From: Rhodospirillaceae bacterium
GTDB lineage: Bacteria > Pseudomonadota > Alphaproteobacteria > MPNO01 > UBA2964
NCBI GenBank assembly: GCA_038146885.1
Contig: JAYQSM010000005.1
Span: forward strand, 171,949 to 235,948
DNA length: 64,000 nt
Direction of reading: 5' to 3'
The notes under the pieces were generated by a model that was given only the letters and a program-made list of their open reading frames with translations, made no database searches and had not been told where the DNA came from. How positions within the stretch are numbered: position 1 is the first letter of the stretch; each line of letters opens with the position of its first letter. Position numbers and translations under genes: made by a program. Shown in pieces: positions 22,299 through 23,447 of the stretch.

Positions 22299-23447
22299 CT
22301 AGGCTTGCCATCTAGCCCCATAAAAGATTCGATCTATCCGAACATTATCCCTGTATTTTAGTACTAAATCCAAAAGCTCAATCAGGACTTCATCTGTAAG
22401 ATAATTTGGCTGCAGGCCCAATTCTGTTAAACCAGAGTGAACCGGATTATAGTAGTGATCTTCAAGCTCGACCCGAGGATTTGGAACAGATTTTATAGCC
22501 ACTCTCAGTCCCATCTTTTCCCCAGCTTTTTGCACTCTCTCCGCAAGATCATTAACGCTAAAGGTTTCTGTGAATTGGTTGAAGATCCGCAATTCTCCTT
22601 TCGGGGCCGGGTTATCTATAGCCAACGCGACACATTTGAGAGTATCTTTTATATTGAGAAAGCCCCTTGTTTGCCCTCCCTTTCCATACACAGTCAAAGG
22701 ATGACCAACTGCAGCCTGGACTATGAATCGATTCAAAACAGTCCCGAATAATTCGTCATAGCTCAGGAAAGGTAGTAGGGAGTCATTTCCATCTACCTCA
22801 TCCGTAAACACCCGTATACAGGGCCTTGCATTAGATCCGTCACTTGGAGTTCCCAGACCCGAACATAAAACCAAAGTAAGTCCGTATCCATAATTTTTGT
22901 TGTGTGGTAGAGGCTTCCTGCCTGTCGAGGATAAAGAAACTTTTGTTCACGTCCTTTATGCCGGATGTCTATCCATCCTTCCTCTATATCAATGTTAGGA
23001 GTTCCATACTCCCCCATTGTTCCAAGTTTTACTAAGTGGGCCTCTGGAGCGAACTCTTTAAGAGCAAATATTACATTTGCGGTAACGCTCAAATTATTGA
23101 TCAGAGTTTGGGTGGCAGCTCTCGGCTCAACATGGAAAAGGGTGCTGAGGGTTGCTCTGCATAATGGATGACATGATCTGGCCTAAACTCAGAAAAAACT
23201 TCAGCCATAAAAGTCCAATCTGAGAGATCCCCGACAAATGTTATTAGGGACCTATTGGAAACATCTCTCCAAATGTTAACTCTTTCTCTCAGATCAGGTA
23301 CTGAGTAGAGAGGCTCAACATCTTCGTCACGCACGGGTTACGCCGAAGATAGCTATCAACTACCGCTACCATCGCCTGGGCCGAAAAAAATTACAGCCGC
23401 TGGCCAGCCAAGGTAGCCATCACCACCTAATATCAAGATCCGCATTT
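22299..23447 (-). pseudogene. sqdB: UDP-sulfoquinovose synthase (SqdB/SQD1) homologue, frameshifted into at least four pieces
   Basis: There is very close collinear similarity to SQD1. The N-terminus MRILILGGDGYLGWP lies near 23447. The remaining fragments are 23101..23334 (FVGDLSDWTFMAEVFSEFRPDHVIHYAEQPSAPFSM), 22793..23092 ([22 protein letters not shown]) and 22299..22874 ([33 protein letters not shown]...VPNPRVELEDHYYN). Confidence 0.7.

What the first reader, a model, noticed from the sequence alone, without database searches (positions are those of the whole stretch)
22299..23447. SqdB-like UDP-sulfoquinovose synthase embedded in a surface-polysaccharide cluster and disrupted
The fragments align almost residue-for-residue with SQD1/SqdB ([54 protein letters not shown].E.HYYN). 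SqdB normally sits with sulfolipid genes (sqdC/sqdD/sqdX). Here it is surrounded by glycosyltransferases and nucleotide-sugar genes, which would imply a sulfoquinovose-containing glycan. It carries at least three frameshifts.
Basis: partly seen in the sequence, partly recalled or inferred. Interest (0 to 1): 0.55.

Follow-up and report, generated by a model that had tools for sequence, protein, structure and literature searches.

The report
Frameshifted SQD1-like sugar gene, possibly artefactual
A full-length relative of the plant and bacterial enzyme that makes the sulfur sugar sulfoquinovose sits in a surface-polysaccharide gene cluster and is broken by four tiny insertions or deletions, but the breaks look more like sequencing-consensus errors than real gene decay, and this type of gene normally lives in such clusters anyway.

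Summary
Window 22299-23445 (minus strand) is a complete SQD1/SqdB-family gene, E 4e-128 to Arabidopsis SQD1 and 74% identical to the best intact homolog, cut by four 1-2 nt frameshifts.

It is not a lone casualty. It is the last gene of a three-gene module: 4-epimerase-like SDR, then Pen/PseB-like dehydratase, then the SQD1-like gene. The module lies in a strain-specific segment (13673-~39400) of an exopolysaccharide or O-antigen-type locus in a Rhodospirillaceae-like MAG, and nearly every minus-strand gene there is frameshifted.

The damage is almost entirely small indels. There are about 24 frameshifts in the three SDR genes and 0-1 nonsense codon. Only 1 of 117 near-invariant residues is changed, and I saw no large deletions in the genes examined. 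The damage starts exactly where sister strains lose homology. I therefore rate consensus error in a poorly covered island (~0.55) above real decay (~0.35).

The polysaccharide context is normal for this clade. In 138 of 160 loci with intact homologs, the same Pen-like gene lies within 7 kb. No sulfolipid transferase is present.

The clade carries Pro in place of Arg101, which is essential in Agl3, and scores below NCBI's UDP-sulfoquinovose-synthase cut-off. Plain UDP-sulfoquinovose as the product is therefore not assured.

The parts
22299..23445 (-). SQD1-like SDR gene of the Pro101 clade. It is full length (about 382 codons) and interrupted by four frameshifts. A Shine-Dalgarno sequence, AGGAG, lies 8 nt upstream of the ATG.
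23370..23391 (-). Frameshift 1. It lies next to a T7 run (A7 on the plus strand), and the region is one codon short.
23334..23336 (-). Frameshift 2: -1 nt in AACCCGTG.
23116..23124 (-). Frameshift 3: -1 nt in CGAGAGCTG.
22808..22810 (-). Frameshift 4: -1 nt in TACGGGTGTTT.
23430..24541 (-). Pen/PseB/CapE-like Polysacc_synt_2 dehydratase gene, the conserved partner of the SQD1-like gene. It carries SSDK...MGTSK motifs. It is full length but has 11-15 frameshifts. Its end overlaps the SQD1-like start codon.
24541..25519 (-). Third SDR, similar to UDP-hexose / HexNAc 4-epimerases. It has 4-7 frameshifts. One TGA at 25434 is either a nonsense substitution or the product of a -1/+1 frameshift pair.
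13673..39400 (.). Lesion zone, made of gene content unique to this strain. It holds broken ManC, a Wzx-like flippase, a deacetylase-like gene by eye (no family hit), methyltransferases, the SDR trio, two GMD-type dehydratases, a nucleotidyltransferase/kinase (kinase domain by Pfam, rest by eye), a GatZ-like gene by eye, and a Bac_transf gene. A few plus-strand ORFs in the zone are intact: 27813-28835 (GT4), 33521-34669, and 36289-37299.
13673..44821 (.). Strain-variable part of the polysaccharide locus. Nucleotide homology to the sister-strain contig Ga0606704_000062 stops at 13672 on the left and resumes at 44822 on the right. The stretch 39.4-44.8 kb holds diverged but intact alleles of Wzy, Wzz/BY-kinase and Metallophos.
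12662..13672 (-). Intact UDP-glucuronate 4-epimerase gene. It is the last gene conserved with sister strains and marks the sharp left edge of the lesion zone.

Best explanation
What it is (shown):
- A complete gene of the SQD1/SqdB/Agl3 family of NAD-dependent sugar-nucleotide enzymes.
- It is the last gene of a tightly packed module: 4-epimerase-like SDR, then Pen-like dehydratase, then the SQD1-like gene.
- The module lies in the strain-specific part of an exopolysaccharide or O-antigen-type locus of a Rhodospirillaceae-like alphaproteobacterial MAG.
- It belongs to a large clade found in non-phototrophic bacteria. That clade is almost always coupled to the same Pen-like gene and to glycan genes, not to sulfolipid genes.

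How it would work when intact (inferred from SQD1/Agl3 chemistry):
- NAD+ oxidises C4 of a UDP-hexose.
- Water is eliminated across C5-C6.
- A nucleophile, presumably sulfite, adds to C6.
- C4 is reduced again.
- The result is a UDP-6-deoxy-6-sulfo sugar, which the cluster's transferases would build into a surface glycan.

Why it looks broken (inferred):
- The four frameshifts belong to a 25-kb zone of indel-only damage.
- That damage is most simply explained as consensus errors in a poorly covered or poorly polished strain-specific segment of a metagenome assembly.
- On this reading the organism probably carries an intact gene.
For: Identity:
- SQD1 structure match at E 3.7e-128.
- Only NF041015 scores strongly.
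- 8000 homologs were found, the best at 71% identity by BLASTP (74% in the frameshift-aware alignment).
- GxxGxxG (read from the sequence), T145-M146-G147, H96, Y182-H183 and K186 are all kept. TMG...Yx3K is the signature listed for UDP-sulfoquinovose synthase in PMC8987622.

Context:
- The Pen-like partner is directly upstream in 110 of 160 loci and within 7 kb in 138 of 160. Only about 6 loci with enough flanking sequence lack it.
- The same gene order, SDR3 - Pen-like - SQD1-like, is seen in L120.
- Recurrent neighbours are GT2 ArnC/PpgS-like (38 loci), PMT_2 (13), DegT (19), sulfotransferase (12) and the sulfite-producing CysH (10).

Artefact reading:
- About 24 frameshifts over the three SDR genes, with 0-1 nonsense codon.
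- The window copy deviates at only 1 of 117 columns that are at least 97% conserved in 145 homologs. Intact homologs deviate at a mean of 0.86.
- The profile-score deficit is only about 30-42 bits. That is near the 38 bits simulated for 2% random substitution, and about 9 bits of it comes from the four junctions.
- The genes I examined keep their length, order, overlaps and SD sequence.
- Damage starts exactly at 13672, where sister strains lose homology, and fades gradually to the right.
- No other copy of this island exists in the protein collection searched.
Against: Against the artefact reading:
- Lesion density is uneven. ORFs of 1.0-1.2 kb inside the zone are clean (27813-28835, 33521-34669, 36289-37299).
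- The equally strain-specific 39.4-44.8 kb stretch is also clean. A simple low-coverage model would not predict either.
- One TGA at 25434 may be a true CGA-to-TGA nonsense mutation.
- A real indel-to-substitution ratio of about 1:5 cannot be excluded from the SQD1-like gene alone (P about 0.06).
- I could not learn the sequencing technology or see any reads.

Against plain UDP-sulfoquinovose as the product:
- Arg101 is Pro.
- Scores are below the NCBIfam cut-off.
- The linkage to a Pen-like dehydratase is unexplained.
Confidence: 0.55

Rival explanations
1. Real pseudogene. The whole strain-specific sugar-synthesis block (about 13.7-39 kb), including the SQD1-like gene, was inactivated in this lineage and is decaying, as O-antigen clusters do in some specialised bacteria. 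A few plus-strand genes and the export genes stay under selection.
For: - The frameshifts are in the sequence as given.
- Lesion density differs by gene: about 13 per kb in the Pen-like gene, about 3.5 per kb in the SQD1-like gene, and zero in several ORFs inside the zone.
- The flanks show no broken ORFs, including 5.4 kb of strain-specific alleles.
- There is one possible nonsense substitution at 25434.
- The profile-score deficits scale roughly with the number of frameshifts in the two genes.
Against: - Multiple hits per gene imply a long period of neutrality, yet conserved residues are untouched: 1 of 117 and 2 of 37, the latter two next to frameshift junctions.
- Nonsense codons are nearly absent. 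About 5 would be expected at an indel-to-substitution ratio of 1:5, and about 11 at 1:10 (my calculation).
- No gene I examined has lost length, and no large deletion turned up in those genes.
- Overlapping stop/start arrangements and the SD sequence persist.
- Keeping 25 kb of dead DNA is unusual for a free-living bacterium (established knowledge).
Confidence: 0.35
2. Canonical sulfolipid sqdB. The gene is, or was, the UDP-sulfoquinovose synthase for sulfoquinovosyl diacylglycerol, and lies near polysaccharide genes only by chance.
For: High similarity to plant SQD1. JGI annotates relatives as UDP-sulfoquinovose synthase.
Against: - There is no sqdX/SQD2-, sqdD- or sqdC-type gene in the window. 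The only glycosyltransferase scanned in the island is a generic GT4 on the opposite strand.
- The gene is translationally coupled to a Pen-like dehydratase, here and in most relatives.
- Carriers are mostly non-phototrophs such as Desulfobacterota and Magnetococcales.
- Arg101 is replaced by Pro.
Confidence: 0.04
3. The SQD1-like enzyme of this clade does not make plain UDP-sulfoquinovose. It works in series with the Pen-like dehydratase on UDP-GlcNAc. The Pen-like enzyme supplies UDP-6-deoxy-GlcNAc-5,6-ene, and the SQD1-like enzyme re-oxidises C4 and adds sulfite or another nucleophile at C6. The product would be a C6-modified HexNAc for the glycan.
For: - The gene pair is almost invariably adjacent, abutting or overlapping, across phyla.
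- The partner's closest solved relative is Pen, the UDP-GlcNAc 5,6-dehydratase (6BWC), at 257 bits against at most 198 for FnlA, CapE, PseB and PglF (PMC8987622).
- SQD1 and Agl3 themselves pass through a 5,6-ene (PMC8987622, PMC4388408).
- The clade has the specific change Arg101 to Pro.
- In L120 and L048 a second, Arg101-type SQD1 paralog lies in the same cluster, which suggests the two types are not redundant.
- CysH lies beside the pair in 10 loci.
Against: - This is purely genomic inference.
- The partner has MxxxK, like CapE and PglF, not the YxxxK of Pen, so it may be an ordinary 4,6-dehydratase that makes a separate sugar for the same glycan.
- No such sugar turned up in the literature I could search.
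Confidence: 0.25

Closest known systems
Arabidopsis SQD1 (PDB 1QRR, 1I24), UDP-sulfoquinovose synthase of sulfolipid synthesis
   Same: The alignment covers the full length at E 3.7e-128, with about 51% identity in the multiple alignment. The GxxGxxG motif is read from the sequence, and H96, T145-M146-G147, Y182-H183 and K186 are all kept.
   Different: Arg101 is Pro. About 30 other positions are fixed in the clade and differ from SQD1, for example N208M, H191D and A194W. There is no SQD2/SqdX partner. The gene sits in a glycan locus beside a Pen-like dehydratase, and it is frameshifted here.
Sulfolobus acidocaldarius Agl3, UDP-sulfoquinovose synthase feeding an N-glycan (PMC4388408)
   Same: Agl3 is the precedent for a family member that serves a surface glycan rather than a lipid. 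It has the same catalytic motif. NF041015, NCBI's UDP-sulfoquinovose-synthase model, is the best NCBIfam hit.
   Different: The window copy scores 400 bits and intact clade members 427-456 bits, against a cut-off of 575. Arg101, whose Ala mutant is inactive in Agl3, is Pro here. The system is bacterial and Wzx/Wzy-type, not archaeal N-glycosylation.
Bacterial sqdB operons (sqdBDC in Rhodobacter/Sinorhizobium, sqdB-sqdX in cyanobacteria)
   Same: Same enzyme family, and the same KEGG-style annotation in JGI records.
   Different: No sqdD, sqdC, sqdX or sqdA was found here, or as a recurrent neighbour in 160 related loci. I did not align cyanobacterial or Rhodobacter SqdB sequences myself.
Pen/Pal of Bacillus thuringiensis and PseB/CapE/FnlA UDP-GlcNAc dehydratases (relatives of the partner gene)
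   Same: The partner is a soluble Polysacc_synt_2 SDR of about 350 aa. Its best solved match is Pen (6BWC), at 2e-75.
   Different: It falls below the PseB and FnlA equivalog cut-offs: 272 against 408 bits, and 219 against 730 bits. It has MxxxK instead of Pen's YxxxK. It is paired with an SQD1-like gene instead of Pal, PseC or FnlB.
Inactivated O-antigen clusters such as that of Yersinia pestis (from my own knowledge)
   Same: Several genes of a surface-polysaccharide cluster are disabled by frameshifts while the flanks stay intact.
   Different: Those cases show one or a few lesions per gene. Here there are 4-15 small indels per gene, with almost no substitutions or deletions, and that is why I suspect an artefact.

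Membership tests
UDP-sulfoquinovose synthase (SQD1/SqdB/Agl3) | Full-length similarity to a characterised member, far above the similarity to other NDP-sugar SDRs | tested here: met
   SQD1 1qrr scores E 3.7e-128 over residues 2-371, and the next, generic SDR scores 6.5e-07.
UDP-sulfoquinovose synthase (SQD1/SqdB/Agl3) | Active-site signature [ST]-M-G ... Y-x3-K, with His after the Tyr (PMC8987622 Table 1; PMC4388408) | tested here: met
   LGTMGEYG and SLYHTTK are present. T145, M146, G147, Y182, H183 and K186 are conserved in the window and in all or nearly all of the 145 homologs.
UDP-sulfoquinovose synthase (SQD1/SqdB/Agl3) | Arg101 in the AEQRSAP motif. The R101A mutant of Agl3 is inactive (PMC4388408). 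| tested here: not met
   The window has AEQPSAP. The position is Pro in 143 of 145 clade members. The only two Arg sequences are second paralogs, in L048 and L120.
UDP-sulfoquinovose synthase (SQD1/SqdB/Agl3) | Score at or above the curated cut-off of the NCBIfam equivalog NF041015 (575 bits) | tested here: not met
   The reconstructed window protein scores 400.5 bits. Intact clade members P0001, P0008 and P0022 score 441.5, 456.4 and 426.9 bits.
UDP-sulfoquinovose synthase (SQD1/SqdB/Agl3) | Conversion of UDP-glucose plus sulfite to UDP-sulfoquinovose | not testable with these tools
   This needs an enzyme assay on an intact clade member.
Sulfolipid (SQDG) pathway | A linked or co-occurring sulfoquinovosyl transferase (SqdX/SQD2, or SqdD with SqdC/SqdA) | tested here: not met
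   None is present in the 64-kb window, and none is a recurrent neighbour in the 160 related loci. The rest of the genome was not available.
Pro101 SQD1-like / Pen-like module (defined here) | A Pen/PseB-like Polysacc_synt_2 gene immediately upstream on the same strand, abutting or overlapping the SQD1-like start | tested here: met
   In the window, gene 23430-24541 ends inside the SQD1-like start region. The arrangement is seen in 110 of 160 loci directly, and in 138 of 160 within 7 kb.
Pro101 SQD1-like / Pen-like module (defined here) | A 4-epimerase-like SDR as a third module gene | tested here: met
   Window 24541-25519 is 57-60% identical to the L006 and L014 homologs. Relatives of it lie within 6 kb of the SQD1-like gene in about 40-50 loci. 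The same order is seen in L120.
Genuine (evolutionary) pseudogene | A disrupted reading frame | tested here: met
   Four frameshifts.
Genuine (evolutionary) pseudogene | Relaxed constraint: substitutions at conserved residues, nonsense codons and deletions accumulating along with the indels | tested here: not met
   The window copy deviates at 1 of 117 conserved columns. There are 0-1 nonsense codons among about 24 frameshifts in the three genes. The genes examined keep their lengths. The profile-score deficit is within about 2 sd of intact homologs.
Genuine (evolutionary) pseudogene | The lesions reproduced in reads or in an independent assembly | not testable with these tools
   The source contig (NCBI, 346,140 bp) is not indexed. 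No other copy of the island is on record. Sister strains carry a different island.

The most novel reading that the evidence does not exclude
The Pro101 SQD1-like gene and its Pen-like partner, often joined by a 4-epimerase-like SDR, form a widespread and uncharacterised nucleotide-sugar pathway of non-phototrophic bacteria. It would make a C6-sulfonated or otherwise C6-modified hexose or N-acetylhexosamine for surface glycans. That would be a bacterial, non-lipid source of sulfosugars, distinct from canonical UDP-sulfoquinovose synthesis. The window holds one copy of this module, damaged or mis-assembled.
Probability: 0.25. Interest if true: 0.75.

Novelty: new variant of a known kind. Interest (0 to 1): 0.4.

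Why it matters
For this locus alone, not much. It is either an assembly artefact or one more decayed polysaccharide cluster. Either way it is a warning against calling pseudogenes from single metagenome contigs.

The wider point is more useful. Genes routinely labelled 'UDP-sulfoquinovose synthase' in Desulfobacterota, Alpha- and Gammaproteobacteria, Magnetococcales and others are not sulfolipid genes. They belong to a conserved glycan-sugar module with a Pen-like dehydratase, and they have an altered active-site residue.

If these modules do make sulfonated sugars, non-phototrophic bacteria would be an unrecognised source of sulfosugars in sediments and the ocean. That would bear on sulfoquinovose budgets and on the use of sqdB as a marker gene. 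The biosynthetic origin of rare sulfosugars such as sulfofucose, which is still unknown (bioRxiv 10.1101/2023.08.01.551581), would also gain a testable candidate.

Tried and rejected
Retrieving the source contig:
- Exact-protein look-ups for 12662-13672, 20060-20878, P0148 and 9021-10973 all returned nothing. The 346-kb NCBI contig is not indexed.

Looking for the same island elsewhere:
- The genome contigs and metagenome-contig scans returned only relatives at 72% identity or less.
- A protein search with the intact 191-aa fragment found only the window's own fragment.
- Island proteins are singletons in the clustered collection.
- Sister-strain contigs were retrieved, but they carry a different, intact island. 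They could not confirm or refute the indels.

Mapping frameshifts without homologs:
- A home-made codon-usage HMM failed. The island's codon usage differs from the training genes, and the high-GC flank gave false switches. I replaced it with a profile of the longest stop-free stretch covering each base.

Apparent in-frame stops:
- My first frameshift-aware alignment suggested two in-frame stops in the Pen-like gene and one in the third SDR gene.
- Re-alignment with a heavier stop penalty shows that all three can be read as frameshift pairs. I do not count them as firm nonsense mutations.

Literature:
- Searches for sulfoquinovose in bacterial O-antigens, capsules or LPS, and for N-acetyl-sulfoquinovosamine, found no description of this module.
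- Absence from the held library is not proof of novelty.

Interpretations rejected:
- A generic epimerase or dehydratase.
- A canonical sulfolipid operon.
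Full report
**1. The observation**

On the minus strand of 22299-23445, three reading frames together spell a complete SQD1-type protein. I wrote a frameshift-aware protein-to-DNA alignment and ran it against two intact homologs. It places four frame changes:
- about 23391-23370, beside a T7 run;
- 23336;
- 23124-23118;
- 22810.

No in-frame stop remains once the frames are corrected. The corrected protein is 74% identical to the best database homolog, P0001 (382 aa).

The family assignment is unambiguous:
- Arabidopsis SQD1 structures score E 3.7e-128, and the next, generic SDR scores 6.5e-07.
- The only strong NCBIfam hit is NF041015, UDP-sulfoquinovose synthase.
- A search of 5.8 billion proteins returns thousands of 382-aa homologs. 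JGI names many of them UDP-sulfoquinovose synthase. NCBI names them only 'NAD-dependent epimerase/dehydratase family protein'.

**2. The organism and the locus**

Window proteins are found on an NCBI contig of 346,140 bp. Relatives at 90% identity or more are labelled as Rhodospirillaceae or Pseudomonadota MAGs.

The window is an exopolysaccharide or O-antigen-type locus.
- Left side: ribonucleotide reductase, a CapD-like dehydratase, a sugar transferase, AsnB, UDP-glucose dehydrogenase and UDP-glucuronate 4-epimerase.
- Right side: Wzy-type proteins, a Wzz/BY-kinase, a metallophosphoesterase and a BBP2_2 porin.
- Between them, from 13.7 kb to about 39 kb, most ORFs are fragments. They include ManC, a Wzx-like flippase, methyltransferases, three SDR genes, two GMD-type dehydratases and a second Bac_transf gene. 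By eye I also read a polysaccharide deacetylase, a nucleotidyltransferase fused to a kinase, and a GatZ-like gene. Of these, only the kinase domain has a family hit.

No sqdX, sqdD or sqdC-type gene, and no second SQD1-like copy, is present in the 64 kb.

**3. Comparison with sister strains**

JGI contigs from other samples (for example Ga0606704_000062) are 98.5% identical over the reductase genes.
- Their homology to the window ends exactly at 13672, the start codon of the epimerase gene. Beyond that point they carry different, intact genes.
- On the other side, nucleotide homology (96%) resumes at 44822. The stretch 39.4-44.8 kb holds diverged alleles of the same export genes.

The SQD1-like gene therefore lies in a strain-specific island. 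No other copy of this island exists in the collections I could search, whether intact or broken.

**4. Is the damage biological?**

The two genes upstream are much worse off than the SQD1-like gene. The Pen/PseB-like gene has 11-15 frameshifts and the 4-epimerase-like gene has 4-7.

Features of the damage that point to consensus error:
- It is almost purely small indels. With a heavier stop penalty, every apparent in-frame stop can be read as a frameshift pair. That leaves 0-1 nonsense codon against about 24 frameshifts in 3.2 kb.
- Among 117 alignment columns that are at least 97% conserved in 145 intact homologs, the window's SQD1-like copy deviates at one. Intact homologs deviate at a mean of 0.86, with a 95th percentile of 2. 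For the partner gene the count is 2 of 37, and both lie beside frameshift junctions.
- Scored against profiles built from half the homologs, the SQD1-like copy falls only about 30-42 bits below the typical held-out score. A simulation gives a 38-bit loss for 2% random substitution, and about 9 bits for the four junctions alone.
- The genes I examined have kept their length, order and overlaps. The SQD1-like gene still has its Shine-Dalgarno sequence.
- A profile of the longest stop-free stretch shows a knife-edge onset at 13.67 kb and a gradual recovery towards 40 kb.

If these were neutral mutations at the usual indel-to-substitution ratio of 1:5 to 1:10, I would expect roughly 5-11 nonsense codons. 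At about 1:10 I would also expect more than ten hits at the conserved columns. These are my own calculations.

Facts that argue against the artefact reading:
- ORFs of 1.0-1.2 kb inside the zone are clean.
- The equally strain-specific 39.4-44.8 kb stretch is clean.
- A TGA at 25434 may be a real nonsense mutation.
- I cannot see reads or learn the sequencing platform.

My weights are about 0.55 for consensus error in a poorly covered or poorly polished island, and about 0.35 for real, very recent decay.

**5. What the gene is in its own family**

I took 160 loci that carry intact homologs, 80 from species-representative genomes and 80 from metagenomes. I called ORFs and clustered the neighbours.
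- A Polysacc_synt_2 SDR of about 347 aa lies directly upstream on the same strand in 110 loci, and within 7 kb in 138. Only about six loci with enough flanking DNA lack it.
- Its best solved relative is Pen, the UDP-GlcNAc 5,6-dehydratase of Bacillus thuringiensis (6BWC). Pen scores 257 bits, against at most 198 for FnlA, CapE, PseB and PglF (PMC8987622).
- The partner has an MxxxK motif rather than YxxxK, and it falls below the PseB and FnlA equivalog cut-offs.
- Other recurrent neighbours are an ArnC/PpgS-like GT2 (38 loci), PMT_2 (13), DegT (19), sulfotransferase (12), WecB (9), GT4 (9) and the sulfite-producing CysH (10).
- A 4-epimerase-like SDR lies nearby in about 40-50 loci.

The window has the same order: epimerase-like, Pen-like, SQD1-like. 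So does L120. The carriers are overwhelmingly non-phototrophs: Desulfobacterota, Magnetococcales, Rhodobacterales, Thiotrichales, Rubrobacter, anammox bacteria and others.

**6. Is it a UDP-sulfoquinovose synthase?**

The catalytic signature of the family is kept: T-M-G ... Y-H-x-x-K, plus His96 (PMC8987622).

Arg101 of the AEQRSAP motif is not kept. Its alanine mutant is inactive in Agl3 (PMC4388408). It is Pro in the window and in 143 of 145 clade members. The only two Arg sequences are extra paralogs that lie in the same clusters as a Pro101 copy, in L048 and L120.

Intact clade members also miss the NCBIfam equivalog cut-off, scoring 427-456 bits against 575.

So the gene works like an SQD1, in that the same cofactor chemistry is very likely. 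I do not file it as a proven UDP-sulfoquinovose synthase. One defining feature was tested and not met, and the constant Pen-like partner is unexplained.

A speculative reading is that the Pen-like enzyme supplies a UDP-HexNAc-5,6-ene, and the SQD1-like enzyme re-oxidises it and adds sulfite. Both Pen and SQD1/Agl3 are known to form 5,6-enes (PMC8987622). I put this at about 0.25.

**7. Literature**

Known non-lipid sulfosugars are sulfoquinovose in Sulfolobus N-glycans and sulfofucose in Thermoplasma N-glycans. Sulfofucose has no known biosynthesis (PMC4388408; bioRxiv 10.1101/2023.08.01.551581). I found no paper that describes sulfoquinovose in a bacterial polysaccharide, or one that describes this gene pair. 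The library is incomplete, so this is weak evidence of novelty.

**8. Verdict**

As a locus it is of modest interest, because it is either an artefact or a routine decayed cluster. The family-level pattern it exposes is a Pro101 SQD1-like gene tied to a Pen-like dehydratase in glycan loci of non-phototrophs. I judge that pattern to be a new variant of a known kind, and it is worth a biochemical test.

Noticed in passing
window 46217-47029 (minus strand); tandem array 46338-46886: This ORF encodes a protein with a hydrophobic, signal-peptide-like N-terminus (judged by eye). The rest consists of about ten near-perfect 15-residue alanine-rich repeats (AAAAAVAASVAQAAP), encoded by a 45-nt tandem repeat with 93% matches at about 56% GC. 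It lies directly beside the BBP2_2 porin of the polysaccharide locus. The sister strain has a related array with offset repeats.
   Followed up: partly
window about 44640-44907 (minus strand), at the right edge of the strain-variable region (44821/44822): The small Wza-like Poly_export/SLBB gene has 172 aa in the sister strain (L168 11280-11798). In the window it lacks about 246 nt (82 codons) exactly at the point where nucleotide homology to the sister strain ends. This is probably a recombination junction.
   Followed up: partly
L120 24-6168 and L048 6862-11664: These two metagenomic or genomic loci carry two SQD1-like paralogs in one glycan cluster. One keeps Arg101, like SQD1 and Agl3. The other is the Pro101 type. 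In L120 the Pro101 copy is preceded by the Pen-like gene. In L048 the gene just upstream is a different SDR (Epimerase family). GT2 genes and epimerase-like SDRs lie between the paralogs.
   Followed up: partly
related loci, e.g. L050 6728-7495 and L092 3534-4502: A CysH-type PAPS/APS reductase, which produces sulfite, lies near the SQD1-like gene in 10 of 160 loci. A sulfotransferase lies near it in 12. An ArnC-like GT2 lies near it in 38 loci and an ArnT/PMT_2-like transferase in 13. The GT2 and PMT_2 genes suggest that some versions of the module decorate a periplasmic acceptor through a polyprenyl-phosphate sugar.
   Followed up: partly
window 25520-27576 (minus strand): Two adjacent GDP-mannose 4,6-dehydratase-type genes (26497-27576 and 25520-26465) and a ManC gene (about 14062-15570) indicate that the island also encoded a GDP-6-deoxyhexose pathway. 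All three are frameshifted, like the SDR trio.
   Followed up: partly
window 27813-28835, 33521-34669, 36289-37299, 39372-40550 (all plus strand): The only long uninterrupted ORFs inside the damaged island are on the plus strand, while almost every minus-strand gene there is broken. I have no explanation for this strand asymmetry. It argues against a uniform error rate.
   Followed up: no
window 8455-9117 / 9021-10973 and L165 14564-15181 / 12663-14615: The AsnB-type asparagine synthase gene and the downstream short Bac_transf gene overlap by about 50-100 nt, both in the window and in the sister strains.
   Followed up: no
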